IMG/VR virus record: IMGVR_UViG_2721755662_000004
Source: a virus
Lineage: Duplodnaviria; Heunggongvirae; Uroviricota; Caudoviricetes
Strand: one strand, 5' to 3'
Length of the DNA: 64,000 nt
In this document: one piece after another, positions 34,838 through 55,372 of the stretch
Layout: each line of letters begins with the position of its first letter
How positions within the stretch are numbered: the stretch's first letter is position 1
Program-made: the position numbers and the translations under genes
Notes under the pieces: generated by a model
What the model was told of the DNA's origin: nothing
The model's database searches: none
The model's input: the letters and a program-made list of their open reading frames with translations, nothing else

Positions 34838-35487
34838 TGACGACGATTACAGAAATCATCGGACGTGTGAATACACAACTGGTTGACCCGATGATGGTTC
34901 GCTGGTCCCTGCAGGAATTGTGCGATTATTACAATGATGCTGTGAGGGCAGTGATTCTGGCGAGACCGGATGCTGGCGCAAGCCTGGAAACAATCAGTTG
35001 TGTTCCGGGCGCCCGTCAGGTTTTGCCCGATGGTGTAATACAACTTCTTGACGTGATATGCCTCAGTGACGGTAGTGCAGTCAGACCATTATCCCGGGAG
35101 GTGCTGGATGCGCAGTATCCTGAGTGGCTCACAATGAAGGGCATTCCTGAATGTTTTATCAGCAACGACCTGTCCCCGCGCGTATTCTGGCTGTTTCCTG
35201 CTCCTGACAAAGAGATAAGTATTGATGCAGTGGTAAGCCGGATACCGGAGGCAGTGTATGTTCTGACGCAGGACGATGATACGCCAGTTCCACTGGAAGA
35301 TGCTTATGTTAACCCACTGGTGGACTGGATGTTGTTTCGCGCTTTCAGTAAGGATGCTGCCGGTGGCGCAGAATCGGGGCTGGCTGCGCAGCATTATCAG
35401 AGTTTTGTTGAGCAACTTGGGATCAAACAGGGGGCAGACAGTGCATTGTCTGCCCGTAAAAAAGTGTTTAACGGAGGTGGAGTGTGA
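34837..35487 (+). CDS. Virion structural protein (hypothetical)
   Basis: 216-aa ORF, ATGA overlap with upstream gene. Confidence 0.55.
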
Positions 35488-37499
35488 GTGTTGTTGTTTC
35501 GGGGACGCTGAAATCTCCTGATGGTGAGGCGATATCAGGAGCAAATATTACCCTGACGGCGCTGACAGTTTCACCGGATGCGCTCAGCGGCACCAGTGCG
35601 TCGGCAGTGACCCGTGAAGGTGGATATTACGGAATGACGATGGATCCGGGGGAGTATGCGGTTTCGGTGACGGTGAAAGGGAAGACTGCTGTCTACGGAC
35701 GTGTGCGTATTGAGGGGACCGAAAGTACGGTGACGCTCAATATGCTGTTACGCCGCAGTCTTGTTGAGGTGAGCATACCCGGAGAACTGCTGACAGATTT
35801 CCGGCAGATACAGAATAATGTGGCTGATGACCTTGCCACTATTCGTCGCCTGAATGAAGACACGGCGACAAAAAACACTCAGGCCACACAGTCAAAAGAC
35901 AGTGCAGCAGCCAGTGCGAAGAGTGCATCTGACAGTGCAAAGACGGCAACCAGCAGGGCGGCTGAAGCCGGACAAAAAGCCAGTGAAGCTGCAGAAGCGG
36001 CGACCCGGGCATGCGAGTCTGAAAAGGCCGCGGCAGCAGACGCGAATGATGCCAGACAACATGCTGAAACCGCCAGAGTGGCTCATGAGGCCGCCGGAGA
36101 CGTTCTTAAACGTGCTGAGGCTGCTACGGTTAGTGCTGAAGAGGCCAGGCGTATGGCAGAGAATGCCAGAGGCCCTAAAGGTGATACCGGACCGAAAGGT
36201 GATGCAGGCCCTCGTGGAGAAACAGGTCCACAAGGCGCACAAGGACCACGCGGTGAAACAGGACCGGTGGGGCCGCAAGGAGAGCGGGGGATTCAGGGGC
36301 CTGCTGGTCCACGAGGTGAAACCGGGGCCAGAGGTGAAAAAGGAGCCCCCGGAGACCCGGGGGGACCACCCGGGCCGAAAGGTGATGCAGGACCTAAAGG
36401 TGACACCGGACCAGCCGGTCCCGCAGGTGAAAAAGGTGAGCCGGGAGAACGAGGGCCTCAGGGAGAGCAGGGGCTACGCGGACCTGCAGGAGAGAGAGGC
36501 CCGGCGGGGCCGCAGGGACCGAAAGGAGATGCCGGTGCGACAGGTCCGGCAGGTCCGAAAGGTGAACGAGGCGAAGCTGGGCCGCAGGGCCCCCGCGGGG
36601 AGCCTGGTCCGGCGGGCAGCGCAGCAAATGTGGTGGACGCGACGACGGCACAGAAGGGAATTGTGCAGCTAAGTAGTGATACTGCCAGTAATGACGAAAC
36701 AAAGGCTGCCACGTCGAAGGCTGTGAAGGCGGCAATGGATGAGGCCAAGGCGGCGAGACAGAAGGCAGAAGAGGTTGCTGCAGGTGGTGGCGTTCCCGGC
36801 CCGAAGGGAGACAAGGGCGATACGGGTCCGGCAGGCCCACAGGGACCGAAAGGGGATACGGGAGCCGCAGGCCCGGCAGGCGCACAGGGGCCAAAAGGTG
36901 ACAAAGGCGATCCGGGGGTGGCTGGACCAGCAGGTCCGGCGGGGCCACAGGGACCGAAAGGGGATACGGGAGCCGCAGGCCCGGCAGGCGCACAGGGGCC
37001 AAAAGGTGACAAAGGCGATCCGGGGGTGGCTGGACCAGCAGGTCCGGCGGGGCCACAGGGACCGAAGGGAGACACAGGAGCCCCCGGGCAAGGAACAGAA
37101 CTGCTTACTACTGCCAATACATGGACTCAGGCACAAACTTTTAATGGTGGTATTAATGGCAATTTGACGGTGACCGGAAACGGCTCATTTAACGATGTTC
37201 AGATCCGTTCGGATAAACGCAACAAGCGAAATGCAATACGAATAGATAATTGTCTGGAGAAGCTTGACTTGCTAACGGGTTATTTGTATGAAATACAGAA
37301 TGCTGATGGCAGTTGGCAACAATCTGTGGGATTATTTGCACAGGATGCGTTAAAGGCTCAACCAGAGTTAGTTACATCTGATACAGATATCATATCTGGT
37401 GAAGAGAGATTTCGATTAAATTATAATGGTGTTATTGCACTGTTAGTTGAAGGAATAAAAAATCTGCGTAAAGAGATTAGCGACCTTAAAGAGAAATAA
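35484..37499 (+). CDS. Tail fibre/spike with collagen-like Gly-X-Y repeats and C-terminal intramolecular-chaperone-like domain
   Basis: 671 aa; long GPxGxxG tracts; GTG start overlapping upstream stop; C-terminus ...[30 protein letters not shown]...[26 protein letters not shown]. Confidence 0.85.
36839..37054. repeat. Perfect tandem duplication (2 x 108 bp) inside collagen-like region
   Basis: Unit CAGGGACCGAAAGGGGATACGGGAGCC... repeated head to tail; encodes duplicated 36-aa Gly-X-Y block. Confidence 0.8.
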
Positions 37500-37581
37500 T
37501 AAAACAATCAGAGAACAGAGAACCATTAGTCTGAGGCAGAAGATGGTTGGTGTTATCGTCCGAATGACAGGAGGATGTTAA

Positions 37582-38127
37582 ATGGGGGTTGCTTCCGGAT
37601 GGGTTGGCTCCTCTGCCGTTAGTGTAACTGGTGAAAGGTCAATGAAATCGGCAGGTGCCAAACTTAAGCTAAGTACACCGTTTTATATGTCGCAAATGGT
37701 TGGGAAAAGTGTACAGGACTTTTCTATCACTGTAGGTCGTTCAAATTTTGTTGTTTTAGTTCAGGCAACAAATATACAAATTGTTCCTGTAAACAATAAC
37801 TATGGAGGGTATTCTAATAACTCAACAACGACAGGTGCTGGCTCTGCCGTTTCCAGCCGTGTGCAAACACAAAATCCGGCTGGTTCAATAAATGGTTCGT
37901 TGTTAGGTTGTTCAATTACGCATCTTTCTCAAACGCAAGACTCTACCAAGATGTATCTGGGCTTAACGAACGGGCCTAATCAAAACTTTACTCTATCATT
38001 TGATGGAACCAATATCTCATTCACACCATTATCATTTGCAAACAATACTCGGCATTATAGTGCAATAGTTTCTAAAAACTGGCTCTTTAATCAAAACGGA
38101 AAAACTATATCTGTTTATAAGGTTTAG
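37582..38127 (+). CDS. Hypothetical protein in AT-rich island after tail fibre
   Basis: 181 aa; AGGAGG SD; Asn/Ser/Thr-rich. Confidence 0.55.
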   Translation: MGVASGWVGSSAVSVTGERSMKSAGAKLKLSTPFYMSQMVGKSVQDFSITVGRSNFVVLVQATNIQIVPVNNNYGGYSNNSTTTGAGSAVSSRVQTQNPAGSINGSLLGCSITHLSQTQDSTKMYLGLTNGPNQNFTLSFDGTNISFTPLSFANNTRHYSAIVSKNWLFNQNGKTISVYKV

Positions 38128-47017: not shown

Positions 47018-50000
47018 ATGGCTTATTCCGATGAACAGCGCCCTGAAGCGCAATTTGGCAACCAGAGCCGCAACAGCCTGAACATTCAGCAGCCGGGAGA
47101 GACTGACAGCTATGATGTGTTTTTCTCCGATCCCAATCGCTGGAAGGACAACAGCACGTCGTTCAGCCTGGGCGATGTATTGCCAACTATGGGGAAAGGT
47201 GTCGCCCAGTCCGTCCGGGGGACAGGGGAAATGGCCCGTGGACTCGGTGATGCGATGATTCAGAGCCCGGTAAAAACAGGGGTACGTATTTTAAATGAGT
47301 TCAGCCGTATGGGGCTGCCGGGAGTCGCAACTGTTCAGGATATTTTTGTCGGTGGCAGCAAGGGGGCGGATGAGGTCATCGACACTCTGCCTGATGGAAA
47401 AAATGCGGTTACTGATACTGTCGGTAAAGGTCTGAAGGTCACAGGCAAGGCCGTCAGTGGCGGCGCTAAAGCCTCGGATGAATGGCTGACTGGCAAGATG
47501 TCGCCGGGGGCGCAGCGGGCGCTGAATACACCGATGACTGAAGGATATGATGATTCAGCGGTCTGGGTAGCGAAAGGGGTTAACCTGATTGGTGCGCTTG
47601 TACCGGATATGGTTGCAGGCGGTGTGACTAAAAAGCTGGGTGATGTCACTCTGCGAAAAGTGCTGACCGCCGGGCTGGAGAAAAAATACATCGCGGCAGG
47701 GATGCAGCCGGAAAGAGCCACAGCACTGGCAGCCGAAGCTGTCGATAAAAAAATGCCGGATTTTTTCCAGGCAGGCCTGATCACCCATTCCACTGTCAGT
47801 GCGCAAGGGCGGAGTGCAATGGCAGCGGCAGATGCTGTTCTTAACGCGGATTATTCTGAGCTGGCGAAGTCACCGAAATTTCAGCAGACCTTTTTGTCAA
47901 TTGATGCAGATCCGCAGCACGCGCAGCTTACTGACCGCCAGAAAATGGACCTGGCAAAAGAGCGTGTTGCCGATGAGGTGCGTGCGCAGCTGGCAACCGA
48001 TCCTGAATTGCTGGCTGTGAATGCCATGGCGGCAAAACTGGGCGATGCTCAGTTGCTTAATCTGGCGATGCGGGGCACGGCGAAGACCGTTAAAAGCGGC
48101 ATTGTCAGAAATGCCACGGAACAGGGGACGATTAATGCGGCGCAGGGTGGCTATTCACGCTATCAGGAAAACACGGCATTGCGTGAGACCGCCGGAATGG
48201 ATGTGTCACCGTGGGAGGGCGTGGCTGACGCAACGATCGAAGGTGCAGCCCTTGGTGCTGCAATGGGGGCACCATTCGGTGCGGCTGCCGGATATCGTGG
48301 AAAACGTCAGGCGGCAGATGAAGCAGCCATGCGTGAGGCTGAAAGCGTTCCTCAGGACGAATCGGCTCCGCAACCCGAACCGGTTGATCCGGTGGCACAG
48401 CATCGTGAATCTATGCAGGGGATGAATCGCGAGCAGCTTCTGGAACAGTATGCTGATGCGGATATGGCACATGAGGGAGACACGTCTGCCGTTCATCGCC
48501 GGGAAGCCGCCAGCCAGCTGTTGAATGAACTGGATGAACAGGCGAAGCGACAGGCGGTGATGGATGAGCTGAAGGCGAAGCCGCGCCCTGAACTGCTTGA
48601 GGAATACCGAAAACTCAGCCAGAAGGAAGGGCGTACTGATACTGAAGAGCAGCAGTTACAGGCAATACGTGATGTGCTTCGCCCTCAGCGGGAGGCCAGA
48701 CCGGAGGCACAGCCACAGCCGGAAAATGCGGATGATGGCGACGGGAGTATTTACCCGACGGTGCGGTTCCGCGATCCGGATGAAGTTCGTATTGAAATTA
48801 ACGAGAGTGGTGCGTCCAGACCAGCAGAACGCATTGAAAAGGTGCGTCCGGACAACCGTTATTTCACGGATGAAAAAAGTGCTCTGGGGAGCGACGTTTT
48901 CCGCAATGCCAGCGCCACCGGCCTGAAACCGTCCGTAGTGAAGAAAGGCGAGAATCAGTATGCCGTTGAAATGGATAATCCTGCGTTCTCTGAAGATGTG
49001 GCAACGGAGACCATTAACACTCTGGCTGACGGAGAGCGTATTACTGATGCTGATCCGATGGAACAGCCCGCGTTCATGCGTGACCCGCGATTCCGTGGTT
49101 TTACGGGGGATGATACAGAAGTGCAGGCCCGTCTTGCTCGTGGCAACGCGCCGACGGCGGAAGAACTGGTGCGTTCCCAGATGGCTGAAGGTGATGCCGG
49201 TCCGACAGCACAGGAGTTAACTGAGCGTCCACGCCTTCCCGCTCCCGGCGATATTCATCCCGGACAGGGATATCCGTTACCAGGAGAAGTAGCGCGTACG
49301 CCGGATGAAAATCAGGCCGGACGTGGTGGTCGTTTTACCACAACCGGTGAGGTGAAGGGCCAGAGTTTCCAGAAAGGACGTGCGCAGGCACCGGAAAATG
49401 CCGCTGGTCGCCAGGGGGAAATACTGGAGGGCGAAACAGTTCGTCGTGGTCTGCCGTCACCGGATGAGCAGAACGCCACAGCACCAGTGCGTGAAGGTCT
49501 TCCTGCACCTGAAAGTCAGCGTGGGGTTGATATGCCACAGCCTGAATCACTCCCTCGTATGGTTCGTGACTCCCTTCCGGAACTGGCACAGCAGGCAGAA
49601 GCACGCAGACAGACCGGGGATAATCGCCAGACCATAACCGATGTTCCGGATACTGAGGTGCCGGTGCCGGTAGATAAACCGAGCACTCACCAGCAGGCGC
49701 GTGGTGCGAAAATTGAAGACTTTGGCGAGGAGATTAAGGGCGCGGCAAAACACCGTTATGCGCAGCTTGCTGAAGCTATGGGTAAAACGCTGGAGGATGG
49801 GGAGTACGCGACACAACCACTGAGCAAACTGTTTCCAAAGCCGGATTATGCCCGTCTGGAAAAAGAAGGTGTGGATAGTGACACGCTGGCAATGATGGCG
49901 TTGTATCGCAGTGAAATTCCCACCAGAACAAGCCGTAACATGCAGAAATGGATCAGCATTGTTAAAAGCGGTCGCGAAGCTACTGCCGGTATGCTGGAGG

Positions 50001-53000
50001 GGAAAATTCCGGCAGCGAAACTGGCTGATATGATGGACAGTAAGCCGGGGTTACGGAGCATGTCGGATACCTGGAAACTGCTCCGTACGCTTTCTGCATT
50101 GCAGATTGATAAAGCATCCGGCTATCGTGTCAGGTCCGGTGTTTATTCGTTTGTCGGGGGAAAACGTTACGATCCGCCGCAAATGATGTATTCGCTTCGT
50201 GATAGCAAGGGGCGCGACCTCTTTTTCTCGGAAAGCCGGGATGAGTTACTGAAAAAGGCGAAAGCATATTTCGATGAACAAGGCTCCAGAGAAAGGGAAA
50301 CGCCAGCAACCTCTGCTGATGACAGAATAACCTTTGACGTGTACCGGCATAAGGCCAGTGGCGACATTTTTATCGGTTATGGCAAAAACAGGCAGAAACT
50401 GAAGGGCGGTTTTGAGTCTGCCCGTGATGCACATGATTATGTGCGCACACATCGTGATGAGCTGGTTAATCAGGTGAAGGCGCTGCGTGAAGTCTCGCGT
50501 GAGGAGCAGCGTAACGCCACCAACCGCGATCGTACCGGACCAGAACGCCGCAAGGGGGATGTTTCGCCGGAGCAGTTCAGTGATGCGTTTGGTTTTCGTG
50601 GTGTGCAGTTTGGTAATTATGTGGAAAGTCCGCGTCGTCAGGCTGATTTGAACCGGGCTTATGACTCGCTGCATGACCTGGCTGACGTGCTGAACGTGCC
50701 GACAAAAGCGCTTTCTCTGAACGGTCGTCTTGGGCTTGCTTTTGGTGCCCGTGGTAAGGGTAAGGCGGCGGCACACTATGAGCCGGGTGAGGTGGCAATC
50801 AACCTGACAAAAGGTAACGGACCGGGGGCGCTGGCCCACGAATGGTTCCATTCACTGGATAATTATTTTGGTCGTTATGATGTTTCCACTGACGGGAAGA
50901 TCACGTCAGGTGGCGACTATATGACGGAAGCACAGCGTGCCGGGCGCGTATTTAAAGACGGCAGGTATGTTGATGCGGAATATCCGGTACGTCAGGAGGT
51001 TTACGACGCGTTTAAAGGCGTGATGAAAGCCATTAACAGCAGTGACATGTTGCGTCGTTCTGAACGCCTGGATGGCGTTCGTTCAAAACCGTACTGGTCA
51101 ACGGATGTTGAAATGGCGGCGCGAGCCTTTGAGCGTTATGTTCAGGATAAAGCGCGTATGGCTGGCGTGGAGAATGATTATCTGGTCAATATCCGTAAGG
51201 CGGATGACCATGGACAGCCGGACACCTACGCTTATCCGACGAATGCAGAACTGGATGGCGGTATTCGTGAGGCATTCGATCACTTGTTCCGAACACTGAA
51301 AACCCGTGAGACGGACAAGGGAGTTGCGTTTTATTCCCGTAAGGGCGTGACCCGCACACCTGAAGGCAATCTGATTTCGGATGTTAACCGCAGTGCGGAA
51401 GCCAAAGGCAGTCCGGTCCCGCAGGTTGAAGCTGTTGCCCGTGGCGTGATTAGTGGCATTAAGGACAGTGACCTGAAGGTCCGCGTGGTGAAGTCACAGA
51501 AAGAGGCTGAAGCACTGGCGGGTGAATCATTCGACGGTTACGGCAAGGTGCACGCGTTCTATCGTCCGGATAAACGTGAAATTGTCCTGGTGGCGGATAA
51601 CATCCCTGACGGGCGGACCGTTCGCGAGAAGTTACGTCACGAGATTATTCACCATGCAATGGAGCATGTAGTCACGCCAGCGGAATATCAGACGATTATT
51701 AAGACCGTGCTGAAAACCCGTGACAGTGATAACGCCACCATCCGTGAAGCCTGGCGTAAGGTTGATGCGTCTTATGGTAAGGAATCACCGGAAGTGCAGG
51801 CGGGTGAATTTCTGGCGCATATGGCAGAGAAGCAGCCGATTAAATTCGTGGCGGCATGGGAGCGTGTTGTTGCCCTGGTCAAAGGGGTACTGCGTCGTAC
51901 GGGGTTACTGAAGCCGACGGAACTGAACGATATCAGACTTGTTCGCGAAACTATTCGCACGTTAGGCCAGCGTGTGCGGGAAGGTTACACGCCGCGTGAG
52001 GATGGCGCGGACGCATCGTCTCAGTACTCCCGTAGCGGTAAGCCTGATCCGTTCAAAGTGCCGGAAGGTGAGGGCGAGCGTTATCGTGATGACCTTGCCA
52101 GAATGATGAAGTCTCTGCGCACCACAGATTTAACGGTAAACATCGGGCGTACGCCGCCGGTATTGCGTCACCTTGGCGCACCAGATTTGCCGCTGGTTAT
52201 CTCCCGCGACACTGTGCGTAAGGCCACCAATGGAGTGAAACATGTGGTGCCGATGGATGTTATCGAGAGACTACCGGAACTGATGCACGATCCGGATGCA
52301 ATTTACCGTTCCGCGACAGAAAGAAATGCGGTTGTGATGCTGCTTGATGCCATGGATAAAAATGGTGATCCTGTAGTGTCAGCGGTACACATGAAGGCTG
52401 TCCGGTCGCGCCTGGAAATCAACAAGGTAGCTTCGGTTTACGGTACGGAAGGAGGAATGAATAAGGCAAATAGTCTGGATAAAGCCGGATTAACGCTTTA
52501 CCGGAAGAAAAAATTAAGCCGCGATAACCTTCTGCACAGAGGGCTTCAATTGCCCAAAGGGGAACATTCTTATCGCGGCTCTGTAGATAAAATACTCTAT
52601 CCTGAAGATATTCGCAAGGGGCCGTATTACTCCCGCACCAGCAGTCTGACGCCGGAAGAGACAATTGCATCCCGTTTTGTTCGCCAGATGCAGGATAAAT
52701 TCCAGGTGCTGAAGGCGGTGCAGGAGAATATCCGTAAAACTGGCGGAAAAATAGATGACAGCAATAACGCCTATATGGCTGAAGAACTCTTCCACGGGAA
52801 GGCGGAAAACGACCTGAACGTAATGAAGGAGCGCTACGTTCAGCCGCTGGCCAAATTGCTGGCGGACTACAAAATTGCGCAGGCCGATCTGGATGAGTAC
52901 CTCTACGCCCGTCACGCGCCGGAACGTAACGCGCATATTGCGAAAATCAACCCGAAAATGCCGGACGGCGGTTCGGGGATGACCAACGCGGAAGCGGCGG

Positions 53001-55372
53001 AAATCATGCAGCGTGTGCGTAACAGCGGCAAACAGGCACAGTATGACCGTCTGGCAGGGATTATTGACGATATGCTGGCCCGTCGCCGTGAGATTATCCG
53101 TGAGGCAGGACTGGAAGAGAGCGGCGTGGTGGATGCCTGGCAGAAAGCCTACCGTTACTACGTCCCCCTGAAAGGGCAGGATGTTGACGGTGTGGTGTCA
53201 CTGCCACGTACAGGCAAGGGATTCACCATCGGCGGGCGTGAAAGTAAGCAGGCCATGGGGCGTGCATCCCGCGCACAGTCTCCTTCCACTCAGGCGATAC
53301 AGGATTTGAGTGAATCGCTGATCCGCAATCGCAAAAATGAAGTGGGTAACGCCTTCCTGAAACTGGTACAGGATAATCCCGACAAGGATTACTGGCAGGT
53401 ATTCACTGATGACAGACCGGATACAATGCGTGTGATTGCAGAGCGCAAGGACCAGGAAACTGGTGAAACCATTCGCGAAGTTGTCGAGCGCCCTGTGCCG
53501 ATGGCAATGATGGCGGATCGCTACTTCACCACCAAAAAGGACGGCAAAACTTACTACATTAAACTTCATGATCCGCGCCTGATGCGTGCGATGAAGAACA
53601 TGGGGCCGGAAACCAGTAACGCCGTAATCCGTACGCTGGGGAAAGTTAACCGCTTCCTGGCAACGGTGAACACGTCGTATAACCCGGAATTTCTGGTCAG
53701 TAACTTCATCCGTGACGTGCAGACTGCGGTGATGAACCTGAAGGCTGAGCAGGGAAGAAGCGACGGCAAACTGAAAGGGCTGGATAACTTATCCGCGCTG
53801 GCTGTGGTGAAAGACAGCCGTTCCGCCATGTCAGCCGTATACGCAAGTCTGCGGGGTAAAACCCTCACGGGCAAAGGCGCACAGTGGCAGAAAGTGTGGA
53901 AAGAGTTTGTTGAGGACGGAGGTAAAACCGGCTGGTTTAACATGGGTGACCTTGAGGGCCAGCAGAAGGAAATGGATCGCCTTGTGTCGCTGGCGAAGGG
54001 CGGATGGAAAGGCCAGAGTATCGGTGCATGGCATTCGTTCCTGAACCTGGTCGAGGATGCCAACGGCGCGGTTGAAAACGCTCTGCGTCTTTCTGCCTAT
54101 AAACACGCCCGTGATGCCGGTTTGTCACGCCAGCAGGCGGCGTCTCTTGCCAAAAACATGACGGTGAACTTTAACCGTCGTGGTGAGCAGGGGATGCTGA
54201 TGAACTCGCTGTACATGTTTGCCAACGCCAGCATTCAGGGGACCGCAAACCTGGTGAGAACGCTCGGACATCTTAATGGCGACGGGCCGTTACTGGAGCG
54301 CCTTCGCTGGAAGAATCTCAATGTACCGCAGAAAATCGTGCTTGCAGCTGTGGGAGCGGGTTATCTGCTTGGCTCGCTTAACCGCAGTGTGGCGGGTGAG
54401 GATGATGACGGGGTTAACTGGTACGACAAAGTACCGTCTCATGTGAAAGAGCGTAACCTCGTCATCATGAAATCGATGTTCGGGGGCAAGGCCGGTGAGT
54501 ACTGGAGTATTCCTCTGCCTTACGGGTACAACGTGTTCTTCCTGCTTGGTCATACAGCTGAAGGTGTGGCAGCGGGCGACCTGACTGCTTCACGTGCTGC
54601 CGGTAATGTTGTCGGCGGTATCCTGGGGGCATTCAGCCCGATCGGCAGCGAGATGTCGGAAACGTTGTCGGGGGCATTGCTGAAAAATGCAGCACCGACA
54701 ATTCTGCGTCCGTTTGCGAATCTTGCCATGAACGAAAACTTCATGGGGGCGCAGATTTACCAGGAGAACATGCCGTTTGGTACACCAAAACCTGACAGCC
54801 AGCTGGGAAGACGTTCAACGCCAGAAGCGTACAAGGCGTTTGCATTCTGGCTGAATGCGTTCTCAGGTGGCAGCCAGTATCGTCCCGGCGCGGTGGATAT
54901 CACACCGGAATCGCTGAAATTCTGGATTGACTATATCTCCGGAGGGACAGGGCGCTTCATTTCCAAAACCACGGATGCGGCGGTGAAATCGCTGAATGGT
55001 ATTGATATACCGGAACAGCAGGTGCCCTTCCTGGGGAAAATTTCGGGTGAGGTGATGCCGTATGCAGACCAGCAGAAGATGTACGACCGGATGACAGAGG
55101 TTGCGCAGTATCACGCAGAGCTGAAGAGTCTAACCGGTGCAGAAAGAACGGCGTTCATTGACGAGAACAACGGAAAATTGTTGATGAACGGGCTTATGCA
55201 GGATACCCGGAAGAGACTGAAGGATTTGCGCAAACAGCGCGATGCCATTTATGCCGACAGTTCTCTCAGTCTGGCGCAGCAGGCGGCGATGGTGAAATCG
55301 GTAGAGCGGGATATGAAGGTTGCCGTGGATCGGTTTAACCGCGAGTACAACAAAAAAGTGGGAGTGGATTAA
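47018..55372 (+). CDS. Giant 2784-aa protein with zincin-like HExxH motif (polyvalent-type virion protein)
   Basis: Single uninterrupted ORF of 8.35 kb; internal ALAHEWFHSLDNYFG motif; multi-segment composition. Confidence 0.8.
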   Translation: MAYSDEQRPEAQFGNQSRNSLNIQQPGETDSYDVFFSDPNRWKDNSTSFSLGDVLPTMGKGVAQSVRGTGEMARGLGDAMIQSPVKTGVRILNEFSRMGLPGVATVQDIFVGGSKGADEVIDTLPDGKNAVTDTVGKGLKVTGKAVSGGAKASDEWLTGKMSPGAQRALNTPMTEGYDDSAVWVAKGVNLIGALVPDMVAGGVTKKLGDVTLRKVLTAGLEKKYIAAGMQPERATALAAEAVDKKMPDFFQAGLITHSTVSAQGRSAMAAADAVLNADYSELAKSPKFQQTFLSIDADPQHAQLTDRQKMDLAKERVADEVRAQLATDPELLAVNAMAAKLGDAQLLNLAMRGTAKTVKSGIVRNATEQGTINAAQGGYSRYQENTALRETAGMDVSPWEGVADATIEGAALGAAMGAPFGAAAGYRGKRQAADEAAMREAESVPQDESAPQPEPVDPVAQHRESMQGMNREQLLEQYADADMAHEGDTSAVHRREAASQLLNELDEQAKRQAVMDELKAKPRPELLEEYRKLSQKEGRTDTEEQQLQAIRDVLRPQREARPEAQPQPENADDGDGSIYPTVRFRDPDEVRIEINESGASRPAERIEKVRPDNRYFTDEKSALGSDVFRNASATGLKPSVVKKGENQYAVEMDNPAFSEDVATETINTLADGERITDADPMEQPAFMRDPRFRGFTGDDTEVQARLARGNAPTAEELVRSQMAEGDAGPTAQELTERPRLPAPGDIHPGQGYPLPGEVARTPDENQAGRGGRFTTTGEVKGQSFQKGRAQAPENAAGRQGEILEGETVRRGLPSPDEQNATAPVREGLPAPESQRGVDMPQPESLPRMVRDSLPELAQQAEARRQTGDNRQTITDVPDTEVPVPVDKPSTHQQARGAKIEDFGEEIKGAAKHRYAQLAEAMGKTLEDGEYATQPLSKLFPKPDYARLEKEGVDSDTLAMMALYRSEIPTRTSRNMQKWISIVKSGREATAGMLEGKIPAAKLADMMDSKPGLRSMSDTWKLLRTLSALQIDKASGYRVRSGVYSFVGGKRYDPPQMMYSLRDSKGRDLFFSESRDELLKKAKAYFDEQGSRERETPATSADDRITFDVYRHKASGDIFIGYGKNRQKLKGGFESARDAHDYVRTHRDELVNQVKALREVSREEQRNATNRDRTGPERRKGDVSPEQFSDAFGFRGVQFGNYVESPRRQADLNRAYDSLHDLADVLNVPTKALSLNGRLGLAFGARGKGKAAAHYEPGEVAINLTKGNGPGALAHEWFHSLDNYFGRYDVSTDGKITSGGDYMTEAQRAGRVFKDGRYVDAEYPVRQEVYDAFKGVMKAINSSDMLRRSERLDGVRSKPYWSTDVEMAARAFERYVQDKARMAGVENDYLVNIRKADDHGQPDTYAYPTNAELDGGIREAFDHLFRTLKTRETDKGVAFYSRKGVTRTPEGNLISDVNRSAEAKGSPVPQVEAVARGVISGIKDSDLKVRVVKSQKEAEALAGESFDGYGKVHAFYRPDKREIVLVADNIPDGRTVREKLRHEIIHHAMEHVVTPAEYQTIIKTVLKTRDSDNATIREAWRKVDASYGKESPEVQAGEFLAHMAEKQPIKFVAAWERVVALVKGVLRRTGLLKPTELNDIRLVRETIRTLGQRVREGYTPREDGADASSQYSRSGKPDPFKVPEGEGERYRDDLARMMKSLRTTDLTVNIGRTPPVLRHLGAPDLPLVISRDTVRKATNGVKHVVPMDVIERLPELMHDPDAIYRSATERNAVVMLLDAMDKNGDPVVSAVHMKAVRSRLEINKVASVYGTEGGMNKANSLDKAGLTLYRKKKLSRDNLLHRGLQLPKGEHSYRGSVDKILYPEDIRKGPYYSRTSSLTPEETIASRFVRQMQDKFQVLKAVQENIRKTGGKIDDSNNAYMAEELFHGKAENDLNVMKERYVQPLAKLLADYKIAQADLDEYLYARHAPERNAHIAKINPKMPDGGSGMTNAEAAEIMQRVRNSGKQAQYDRLAGIIDDMLARRREIIREAGLEESGVVDAWQKAYRYYVPLKGQDVDGVVSLPRTGKGFTIGGRESKQAMGRASRAQSPSTQAIQDLSESLIRNRKNEVGNAFLKLVQDNPDKDYWQVFTDDRPDTMRVIAERKDQETGETIREVVERPVPMAMMADRYFTTKKDGKTYYIKLHDPRLMRAMKNMGPETSNAVIRTLGKVNRFLATVNTSYNPEFLVSNFIRDVQTAVMNLKAEQGRSDGKLKGLDNLSALAVVKDSRSAMSAVYASLRGKTLTGKGAQWQKVWKEFVEDGGKTGWFNMGDLEGQQKEMDRLVSLAKGGWKGQSIGAWHSFLNLVEDANGAVENALRLSAYKHARDAGLSRQQAASLAKNMTVNFNRRGEQGMLMNSLYMFANASIQGTANLVRTLGHLNGDGPLLERLRWKNLNVPQKIVLAAVGAGYLLGSLNRSVAGEDDDGVNWYDKVPSHVKERNLVIMKSMFGGKAGEYWSIPLPYGYNVFFLLGHTAEGVAAGDLTASRAAGNVVGGILGAFSPIGSEMSETLSGALLKNAAPTILRPFANLAMNENFMGAQIYQENMPFGTPKPDSQLGRRSTPEAYKAFAFWLNAFSGGSQYRPGAVDITPESLKFWIDYISGGTGRFISKTTDAAVKSLNGIDIPEQQVPFLGKISGEVMPYADQQKMYDRMTEVAQYHAELKSLTGAERTAFIDENNGKLLMNGLMQDTRKRLKDLRKQRDAIYADSSLSLAQQAAMVKSVERDMKVAVDRFNREYNKKVGVD

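What the first reader, a model, noticed from the sequence alone, without database searches (positions are those of the whole stretch)
36839..37054. Perfect 108-bp tandem duplication inside the collagen-like tail fibre gene
Two head-to-tail identical 108-bp units encode a duplicated 36-aa Gly-X-Y block. This is likely a recent slippage or recombination event and a site of fibre-length variation between isolates; it also explains the many spurious antisense ORFs here.
Basis: seen in the sequence. Interest (0 to 1): 0.35.

Follow-up and report, generated by a model that had tools for sequence, protein, structure and literature searches.

The report
Recent 108-bp duplication lengthening a prophage tail fibre
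A prophage tail-fibre gene in an E. coli O104:H4-type genome carries a real, perfect, in-frame 108-bp tandem duplication that adds 36 residues (about 10 nm) to a collagen-like stalk. This is one ordinary allele in a series of stalk-length variants that this family of phage proteins is already known to show.

Summary
Window 36839-36946 is identical to 36947-37054. The exact period-108 tract is 36837-37066, which is two units plus a 14-bp repeat. Codon-aware shuffles give at most 26 nt of exact repeat, against 122 nt here.

The duplication lies in frame in the second collagen-like domain of a 671-aa tail fibre (35484-37499). The fibre belongs to a 933W/Sp5-like short-tailed prophage that has no stx gene.

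Copy number varies between isolates:
- Six complete Korean E. coli genomes carry two units.
- Seventeen O104:H4 outbreak-type genomes carry exactly one.
- Short-read contigs carry none, and the deletion is the exact reciprocal across the same 14-bp repeat.
- The closest known relative of this prophage carries a 390-bp in-frame deletion that still keeps the junction between the two units.

Together these argue against an assembly artefact. They point to misalignment between short Gly-X-Y-coding direct repeats as the cause.

The long antisense ORFs come from stop-poor, 71% GC collagen coding; they are also present in the one-copy and zero-copy alleles. "Recent" is only loosely bounded.

Variable collagen-domain length in these proteins was published in 2012. 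The finding is real but ordinary.

The parts
35484..37499 (+). Tail-fibre gene, 671 aa with a GTG start. Layout: N-terminal attachment domain, Ala/Ser/Glu-rich coiled-coil region, Col1, Pf2 repeat, Col2, C-terminal S74 chaperone domain.
   Evidence: ORF list. Pfam hits. 100% identical to RefSeq WP_000117972.1, 'tail fiber protein', in FORC_069.
35496..35741 (+). N-terminal domain, aa 5-86. Matches CarboxypepD_reg and corresponds to the PfN domain of Ghosh et al. Presumed to attach the fibre to the virion.
   Evidence: PF13620 scores 34.7 bits against a cut-off of 32.3. PF08400 aligns over positions 1-130 of 134 but scores below its cut-off, 18.6 against 26.6.
36171..36623 (+). Col1: 151 aa of Gly-X-Y with the single family-typical interruption GDPGGPPG at aa 290.
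   Evidence: Regular-expression search on the translation. The interruption motif is described in PMC3368898.
36642..36767 (+). Phage_fiber_2 (Pf2) repeat, aa 387-428, lying between the two collagen domains.
   Evidence: PF03406, E = 1.3e-14.
36789..37094 (+). Col2: 102 aa, 34 uninterrupted Gly-X-Y triplets, 71% GC. This domain contains the duplication.
36837..36944 (+). 108-bp unit, copy 1, given in codon phase.
36945..37052 (+). 108-bp unit, copy 2, identical to copy 1. The sequence around 36933-36976 (GCGGGGCCACAGGGACCGAAAGGGGATAC...) is the junction between units and exists only in alleles with two or more units.
37053..37066 (+). Third copy of the 14-bp direct repeat CCACAGGGACCGAA (also at 36837-36850 and 36945-36958). 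It sits inside an imperfect repeat of about 44 bp (36825-36868 and 37041-37084). This is the site of misalignment.
   Evidence: The 0-copy allele is joined exactly across this 14-mer.
37209..37376 (+). Peptidase_S74 intramolecular-chaperone domain, aa 576-631. It begins with the SDKRNK motif; Ser576 is encoded at 37209-37211. Self-cleavage here is presumed, not shown.
   Evidence: PF13884 scores 34 bits against a cut-off of 22. PDB 6f45_A, 'Long tail fiber distal subunit', matches at E = 1.4e-11 over query residues 23-136.
37582..38127 (+). Downstream 181-aa ORF with a Gp38_N domain. Probably the tip adhesin carried by this fibre.
   Evidence: PF21721, E = 1.1e-19.

Best explanation
This is a genuine, heritable, in-frame tandem duplication of 12 Gly-X-Y triplets in the distal collagen-like stalk (Col2) of the tail fibre. 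The fibre belongs to a 933W/Sp5-like short-tailed lambdoid prophage in the Korean branch of E. coli O104:H4-type strains.

How it arose (inferred). In the one-unit allele, the 108-bp unit is bracketed by a short direct repeat: 14 bp exact, within about 44 bp imperfect, encoding [11 protein letters not shown]. Misalignment of these two repeats, by replication slippage or by unequal sister-strand exchange, gives a two-unit product and a zero-unit product. Both products exist in nature.

What it does (partly shown for homologues, inferred here). Col2 folds as a collagen triple helix in the trimeric fibre. At 2.9 Angstrom per residue, each unit adds about 10.4 nm, so Col2 would be about 8.7, 19 and 30 nm long in the 0-, 1- and 2-unit alleles. 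The virion-attachment end, the Pf2 joint, the S74 chaperone and the gp38-like tip adhesin are all unchanged. Only the reach of the tip changes.

Whether the extra length alters adsorption or host range is not known. The default reading is a neutral or nearly neutral length polymorphism.
For: - The repeat is perfect and far beyond chance.
- It is in frame and keeps the Gly-X-Y register.
- The window is 100% identical to FORC_069 over 42,016 bp.
- Six complete genomes (FORC_029, FORC_043, FORC_069, NCCP15648, NCCP 13905, NCCP 13983) carry the 2016-bp allele at 100% identity. Their chromosome lengths range from 5,189,917 to 5,329,605 bp. Two of them were isolated in 2001 and 2016.
- Seventeen O104:H4-type genomes carry a 1908-bp allele that differs by exactly one 108-bp gap plus 9 substitutions.
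- Between fixed anchor sequences, Col2 DNA measures 300, 192 and 84 bp in the 2-, 1- and 0-unit alleles. The 0-unit allele reads left flank, then CCACAGGGACCGAA, then right flank. That is the exact reciprocal product.
- L010 and L011 are 99.95% identical to the window over 12,084 bp of prophage. They have a 390-bp in-frame deletion (window 36551-36930) across the 10-mer CAGGTCCGGC and still carry the two-unit-specific junction. Their ancestor therefore had two units.
- The domain layout comes from Pfam.
- Homologues EPclA and EPclB were shown to be trimers with collagen triple-helix stalks whose length fits 2.9 Angstrom per residue (PMC3368898).
- The Sp5 homologue ORF67 is essential and was located at the tail end by immuno-electron microscopy (PMC5155283).
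Against: - I had no sequencing reads. Several of the six assemblies come from the same two Korean collections, and three have nearly the same chromosome length, so they may not all be independent.
- The exact one-unit ancestor was not found. The O104:H4 one-unit allele ends its unit in GCA, whereas both window units end in GCG.
- Fourteen bp of exact homology does not distinguish slippage from recombination.
- Gene conversion between older copies would also give identical units.
- Nothing here tests the triple-helix fold or fibre length for this particular protein, or any phenotype.
- The Korean and German prophages differ by 1.2-2.4% overall, so the alleles are not separated by this one event alone.
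Confidence: 0.85

Rival explanations
1. Assembly artefact: the true sequence has one unit, and the assembler duplicated it.
For: Tandem repeats are a known weak point of assemblies. I could not inspect reads. Three of the six carriers have almost identical chromosome lengths (5,189,917, 5,189,943 and 5,189,944 bp) and could be the same strain sequenced more than once.
Against: - Six complete-genome records agree at 100% identity. They include assemblies of 5.23, 5.24 and 5.33 Mb and isolates dated 2001 and 2016.
- Assemblers usually collapse perfect repeats rather than expand them.
- The duplication is exactly in frame.
- Two further records from other sources (IMG/VR and ENA; L010, L011) carry a derived allele that retains the junction between units.
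Confidence: 0.03
2. An old two-unit array kept identical by gene conversion, with the one-unit and zero-unit alleles being deletions from it. On this reading the site is not a recent duplication.
For: - Zero differences in 108 bp is weak dating evidence. At the 0.47% divergence between the window and O104:H4 alleles (9 of 1908), only about 0.5 differences would be expected.
- A perfect 108-bp repeat deletes readily (general knowledge).
- Related fibres hold long-standing arrays of 2-5 units of 36 aa.
- The L010/L011 allele shows that deletion from a two-unit state does occur.
Against: - The two-unit allele is confined to one small clade: 6 of 5,426 complete genomes, plus one derivative.
- One-unit, zero-unit and other forms occur on more diverse backbones.
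- Both window units share the GCG variant, as expected if one was copied from the other.
- Parsimony favours a single gain.
Confidence: 0.1
3. An adaptive length-tuning site: copy-number changes in Col2 are selected because fibre reach matters for adsorption through O-antigen or capsule. The site would then act as a host-range contingency locus.
For: - Many independent in-frame length alleles occur at this one domain. Spans of 393, 465, 501, 519, 571 and 616 bp for the same query all differ by multiples of 9.
- Further alleles of 599, 623, 635, 671, 677 and 541 aa are seen.
- Relatives show 2-5 units of 36 aa.
- In a virophage, an 81-nt deletion in collagen-like repeats accompanied host-range expansion (PMC7242381).
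- In Bacillus anthracis BclA, the number of collagen-region repeats is reported to set filament length (Sylvestre 2003, cited in PMC10470788).
Against: - There are no phenotype data for this fibre.
- In-frame alleles are the only ones that survive in an essential fibre gene, so their abundance may reflect mutational bias plus purifying selection.
- The one-unit and two-unit carriers are both O104:H4-type hosts.
- The rest of the gene is nearly invariant.
Confidence: 0.15

Closest known systems
EPclB, the EHEC prophage collagen-like protein B (Z1483 of 933W, ECs1228 / ORF67 of Sp5). Described in Ghosh et al. 2012 (PMC3368898) and Mondal et al. 2016 (PMC5155283).
   Same: - Same gene position, directly after the adaptor gene in a 933W/Sp5-type late operon.
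- Same order of parts: PfN, PCoil, Col1 with the GXPGGPXG interruption, Pf2, Col2.
- The first 690-750 bp are 89-93% identical to Stx-phage fibres.
- Col lengths vary in multiples of three residues, as that paper reports.
   Different: - The C-terminus is a Peptidase_S74 chaperone domain rather than PfC (PF06820).
- It is followed by a gp38-like gene.
- Col lengths are 151 and 102 aa, against 157 and 114.
- The prophage has no stx gene.
EPclD-type fibre of Stx2-converting phage 86 (Stx2-86_gp21, 673 aa).
   Same: Both the N-terminal and C-terminal pieces match the window gene: 59% coverage at 82% identity in two pieces. The C-terminus is not a PfC domain.
   Different: It has a single long Col domain of 322 aa with no Pf2. 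The L010/L011 deletion allele seen here converges on that single-Col layout.
Lambda-Stf-like E. coli prophage side-tail fibres with arrays of 36-aa units (P0082-P0120).
   Same: Col2 begins with the same [19 protein letters not shown]. It is built of tandem 36-aa (12-triplet) units containing [11 protein letters not shown], with 2 to 5 copies depending on the allele.
   Different: The unit sequence and register differ, the C-terminal domain differs, and the prophages are long-tailed.
T2/S16-type long-tail-fibre tip: the gp37 distal subunit with its intramolecular chaperone, plus the gp38 adhesin (PDB 6f45).
   Same: The C-terminal 114 residues align to 6f45_A at E = 1.4e-11. The next gene has a Gp38_N domain at E = 1.1e-19.
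   Different: The shaft here is collagen-like rather than beta-structured, and the phage is a temperate short-tailed lambdoid.
Bacillus anthracis BclA and other bacterial collagen-like proteins that vary in Gly-X-Y repeat number.
   Same: A strain-specific number of collagen triplets in a trimeric surface filament. Repeat number is reported to set filament length (title of Sylvestre 2003, as cited there).
   Different: An unrelated protein with a different function (spore nap). It has short repeat units rather than a 108-bp unit.

Membership tests
EPclB-type prophage collagen-like tail fibre (Ghosh 2012) | N-terminal PfN domain (PF08400) | tested here: inconclusive
   PF08400 aligns over positions 1-130 of 134 but scores 18.6 bits, below the 26.6 cut-off. 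The overlapping CarboxypepD_reg model passes at 34.7 against 32.3.
EPclB-type prophage collagen-like tail fibre (Ghosh 2012) | [quoted passage not shown] | tested here: met
   Col1 is aa 230-380 with GDPGGPPG at aa 290. Pf2 is aa 387-428 (E = 1.3e-14). Col2 is aa 436-537.
EPclB-type prophage collagen-like tail fibre (Ghosh 2012) | Ala/Ser/Glu-rich PCoil region between PfN and Col1 | tested here: met
   Read directly from the translation at about aa 130-229 ([41 protein letters not shown]...). I ran no coiled-coil predictor.
EPclB-type prophage collagen-like tail fibre (Ghosh 2012) | C-terminal PfC domain (PF06820) | tested here: not met
   No PF06820 hit. The C-terminus is Peptidase_S74. The protein is therefore EPclB-like up to Col2, with an EPclD-like non-PfC end.
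Tandem duplication by misalignment at short direct repeats | Identical head-to-tail units, with the single-unit allele flanked by a short direct repeat | tested here: met
   The units match 108/108. A 14-bp exact repeat lies within about 44 bp of imperfect repeat at both unit ends in the one-unit allele.
Tandem duplication by misalignment at short direct repeats | The reciprocal deletion product exists, with its junction inside the same repeat | tested here: met
   L007 and L008 have an 84-bp Col2 joined across CCACAGGGACCGAA. It was found on six contigs.
Tandem duplication by misalignment at short direct repeats | The array is present in the reads and is not an assembly product | not testable with these tools
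   Indirect support only: six complete assemblies and a derived allele that keeps the junction.
Fibres with a Peptidase_S74 intramolecular chaperone | S74 domain with the conserved Ser...Lys cleavage motif | tested here: met
   PF13884 scores 34 bits against a cut-off of 22. The motif is IRS576DKRNK. It aligns to 6f45_A.
Fibres with a Peptidase_S74 intramolecular chaperone | Self-cleavage and release of the chaperone after trimer folding | not testable with these tools
   This needs protein biochemistry.
Collagen triple helix | Uninterrupted Gly-X-Y repeats | tested here: met
   Col2 has 34 consecutive triplets. PF01391, E = 5.8e-38.
Collagen triple helix | Trimeric triple-helical fold | not tested
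   Shown by circular dichroism and electron microscopy for the homologue EPclA only (PMC3368898).

The most novel reading that the evidence does not exclude
Col2 of these short-tailed prophage fibres could act as a modular length cassette. Frequent gain and loss of 54- or 108-bp Gly-X-Y units at built-in short repeats would generate fibres of graded reach, roughly 9 to 30 nm. Selection would act on that reach according to the thickness of the target cell's O-antigen or capsule. The site would then be a host-range contingency locus for Stx-type phages.
Probability: 0.15. Interest if true: 0.4.

Novelty: new member of a known kind. Interest (0 to 1): 0.15.

Why it matters
The practical value is modest.

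- **Strain marker.** The 108-bp indel cleanly separates the Korean O104:H4-type lineage (two units) from the 2009-2011 outbreak-type lineage (one unit). It could serve as a simple PCR marker. Short-read assemblies are likely to collapse it.
- **Worked example of the mutational mechanism.** Both reciprocal products and a secondary deletion are seen on one gene backbone. This shows how collagen-like coding repeats produce in-frame fibre-length variants.
- **Basic biology.** It adds nothing unexpected. Variable collagen-domain length in these proteins is published, and no phenotype is attached to this allele.

Tried and rejected
- **Exact-sequence look-ups failed.** The 671-, 635- and 677-aa proteins were not found in the 15-billion-protein collection, with either V or M as first residue. 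I therefore could not count carriers among short-read assemblies.
- **Junction search gave derivatives, not new carriers.** Searching viral and metagenome collections for the two-unit-specific junction found no further full two-unit alleles. It found only the 390-bp-deletion derivative.
- **No sequenced phage carries the allele.** No record in the phage collection covers 80% or more of the gene.
- **tRNA scan was empty.** No tRNA genes were found in the window.
- **Antisense ORFs rejected as genes.** The long ORFs at 36394-37056, 36458-37117 and 36669-37136 are composition artefacts.
- **Programmed diversification rejected.** A diversity-generating retroelement or phase-variation system is unlikely. 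The annotation shows no reverse transcriptase in the prophage, and the unit is far longer than a slippage-prone microsatellite.
- **Structure prediction not run.** A monomer model cannot represent a collagen trimer, so it would not test the length claim.

Full report
**1. The observation**

Window 36839-36946 and 36947-37054 are identical at all 108 positions. The phase is arbitrary. Identity at a lag of 108 runs for 122 consecutive nucleotides, so the exact periodic tract is 36837-37066. That is two 108-bp units followed by a third copy of the 14-mer CCACAGGGACCGAA. Tandem Repeats Finder gives 36825-37082, period 108, 2.4 copies, 96% matches and no indels. It also reports a weaker 54-bp sub-period; the two halves of a unit match at 35 of 54 positions.

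This is not what collagen-like low complexity produces by itself. The longest exact repeat in the 756 nt of Gly-X-Y coding sequence is 122 nt. It drops to 17 nt when one unit is removed. In 500 shuffles that keep G, X and Y codons in their own position classes it is 14.3 +/- 1.9 nt, with a maximum of 26. Identity at lag 108 in Col2 is 0.82, against 0.44-0.59 at other multiples of 9.

**2. The gene and its setting**

The repeat lies in frame in ORF 35484-37499 (+), 671 aa. Pfam finds four domains:

| Domain | Residues | Score |
|---|---|---|
| CarboxypepD_reg / prophage-tail-fibre N-terminal | 5-86 | 34.7 bits (cut-off 32.3) |
| Collagen | three stretches | E = 5.8e-38 |
| Phage_fiber_2 | 387-428 | E = 1.3e-14 |
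| Peptidase_S74 | 576-631 | 34 bits (cut-off 22) |

The Gly-X-Y runs are aa 230-380 and aa 436-537. The first is Col1, with one GDPGGPPG interruption. The second is Col2: 102 aa, 34 triplets, 71% GC. The duplication occupies aa 448-519 of Col2.

The C-terminal 114 residues align to PDB 6f45_A, 'Long tail fiber distal subunit', at E = 1.4e-11. The next ORF (37582-38127) has a Gp38_N adhesin domain at E = 1.1e-19. The upstream ORF is an SU10-type adaptor.

The window is 100% identical over 42,016 bp to E. coli FORC_069 from Seoul. The annotation there shows a 933W/Sp5-type late region: N4-gp56-type capsid protein, adaptor, fibre, Cor, tail-tip protein, Lom, and a 2,784-aa LPD38 protein. It also has lambdoid early genes and no stx gene. 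The prophage lies between intD and ynfF.

The Sp5 homologue of this gene, ORF67/ECs1228, is essential and was located at the tail end by immuno-electron microscopy (PMC5155283).

**3. Variation between isolates**

Among 5,426 complete E. coli genomes, 27 carry this allele family over at least 80% of its length:

| Genomes | Gene length | Notes |
|---|---|---|
| 6 (FORC_029, FORC_043, FORC_069, NCCP15648, NCCP 13905, NCCP 13983) | 2016 bp | 100% identical to the window; two units |
| 17 (O104:H4 outbreak-type: 2011C-3493, C227-11, HUSEC2011, 2009EL-2050, 2009EL-2071 and others) | 1908 bp | one unit |
| 4 (O10:H32 and others) | 2034 bp | different repeat structure |

Aligning the 1908-bp allele to the window gives exactly one 108-bp gap plus 9 substitutions. 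Six of those substitutions cluster at gene positions 57-141. FORC_069 (2016) and NCCP15648 (2001) are listed among South Korean isolates in a genomic comparison of O104:H4 strains (PMC9423916).

Col2 DNA, measured between two fixed anchor sequences, shows the following:

| Allele | Col2 length | Structure |
|---|---|---|
| Window | 300 bp | two units |
| O104:H4 (L002) | 192 bp | one unit |
| L007, L008 (Logan contigs) | 84 bp | no unit; reads left flank, CCACAGGGACCGAA, right flank |
| L003 | 318 bp | a perfect 54-bp duplication plus a diverged third copy |
| L009 | 156 bp | a further variant |

The zero-unit protein is on six contigs from several sources. A shared 14-mer is too short to mislead a k-mer assembler, so this allele is not a collapsed repeat (inference).

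A 501-bp query across Col2 matches record spans of 393, 465, 501, 519, 571 and 616 bp. All differ from the query by multiples of 9.

**4. A derived allele that vouches for the two-unit state**

I searched for the sequence that only a junction between two units can contain (GCGGGGCCACAGGGACCGAAAGGGGATACGGGAGCC). It hit one IMG/VR contig (L010) and one ENA contig (L011).

Their fibre gene is 1626 bp (541 aa). It is identical to the window gene for 1,067 bp and has one mismatch in the last 569 bp. An in-frame 390-bp deletion (window 36551-36930) is joined across the 10-mer CAGGTCCGGC. It removes the end of Col1, Pf2 and the first unit, but keeps the junction between units.

A one-unit allele could not give this sequence by simple deletion, because every allele seen has GGTCCGGCAGGCCCA to the left of the first unit. 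These contigs are 99.95% identical to the window over 12,084 bp of prophage, against 98.8% for the German O104:H4 prophage. So the nearest known relative descends from a two-unit ancestor.

**5. Mechanism**

In the one-unit allele the unit is bracketed by GGTCCGGC(A/G)GG(C/G)CCACAGGGACCGAA..., which encodes [14 protein letters not shown] at both ends. Misaligning these repeats during replication or sister-strand exchange yields a two-unit and a zero-unit product, and both are observed.

Fourteen exact base pairs is shorter than RecA-dependent exchange is generally held to need, which favours slippage. That rests on general knowledge and was not tested here. Once made, a perfect 108-bp repeat should itself expand and contract more readily (general knowledge).

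**6. Timing**

Zero differences between the units gives only a loose bound. At the 0.47% divergence between the window and O104:H4 alleles, about 0.5 differences per 108 bp would be expected. The 95% upper bound is about 2.8% divergence (my calculation). The restriction of the allele to one small clade is the better argument that it is derived.

**7. Consequence**

Homologous EPclA and EPclB proteins are trimers with collagen triple-helix stalks whose electron-microscopy length fits 2.9 Angstrom per residue (PMC3368898). On that basis one unit adds about 10.4 nm, and Col2 would be about 8.7, 19 and 30 nm long with 0, 1 and 2 units (inference).

The attachment domain, the Pf2 joint, the S74 chaperone and the downstream gp38-like adhesin are unchanged. 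Only the reach of the tip should change. No phenotype is known for this allele.

**8. Antisense ORFs**

Col2 has no stop codon in any of the three antisense frames or in frame +1. Col1 has 1-2 per antisense frame. The AT-richer C-terminal region has 5-10. The longest antisense open frames are 236, 200 and 164 aa in the 2-, 1- and 0-unit alleles. Composition creates these ORFs, and the duplication only extends them.

**9. Comparison with what is known**

Ghosh et al. 2012 defined the EPclA-D prophage collagen-like proteins. They reported that Col lengths vary within each architecture in multiples of three residues.

This protein follows the EPclB order up to Col2 but ends in an S74 domain instead of PfC. 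Its ends match the EPclD-type Stx2-86 gp21.

A neighbouring family of lambda-Stf-like fibres has Col2 built of 2-5 tandem 36-aa units containing the same [11 protein letters not shown] motif. Copy-number change of 12-triplet modules is therefore a recurring habit of these genes.

Two outside precedents exist. Strain-specific triplet numbers occur in B. anthracis BclA. In a virophage, an 81-nt deletion in a collagen-like repeat was linked to host-range expansion.

**10. Verdict**

The event is an ordinary allele of a known kind of length polymorphism in an annotated gene. Interest is low.

Noticed in passing
window 37095-38127; L003 5120-5632; L007 4886-5398: The fibre tip is of the T2/S16 type: an S74 chaperone domain similar to PDB 6f45, followed by a gene with a Gp38_N domain. 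In the L003 and L007 alleles the S74 domain sequence and the downstream gp38-like gene (170 aa instead of 181 aa) are swapped together, while the fibre upstream stays 99% identical. This suggests that the tip and its adhesin are exchanged as one module.
   Followed up: partly
L010 (reverse strand) gene at 11456-13081 of the reverse complement; L011 likewise; window 36551-36930: A 541-aa allele has a 390-bp in-frame deletion that fuses Col1 to Col2 across the 10-mer CAGGTCCGGC and removes the Pf2 repeat. This converts an EPclB-like two-stalk fibre into a single-stalk, EPclD-like one.
   Followed up: yes
L003 3001-5034 (Col2): The O10:H32 allele has its own perfect 54-bp (18-aa) tandem duplication plus a diverged third copy at the same site. 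This is an independent repeat change in Col2.
   Followed up: partly
window 35540-35624: Six of the nine substitutions separating the window allele from the O104:H4 outbreak allele fall within 85 bp near the 5' end of the fibre gene. This looks like a small recombination patch rather than scattered mutation.
   Followed up: no
window 19694-22804: The antiterminator Q gene (19694-20128) and the SASA/NanS-type esterase gene (20894-22804) are separated by only 765 bp, with no tRNA genes and no stx gene. This is the position where Stx phages of this type carry tRNAs and the toxin genes (the usual Stx-phage layout is from general knowledge).
   Followed up: partly
P0082-P0120 (for example P0100, P0084, P0111): A related family of E. 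coli prophage side-tail fibres has Col2 made of 2-5 tandem 36-aa units (GEKGATGATGPQG[A/P][22 protein letters not shown]). P0111 lies on a contig of 5,244,443 bp, which is the chromosome length of FORC_043. The same lineage therefore probably holds a second fibre of this repeat-bearing type.
   Followed up: partly
window 25102-25683 (-): A gene annotated as 'lipopolysaccharide core heptose(II)-phosphate phosphatase' lies on the opposite strand between the lysis genes and the terminase genes. It looks like a moron (an inserted accessory gene) that could alter the host's LPS core.
   Followed up: no
window 47018-55372 (+): A 2,784-aa LPD38-domain protein occupies this stretch. It is the counterpart of the unusually large Sp5 ORF80, which is reported as required for tail formation (PMC5155283).
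   Followed up: no
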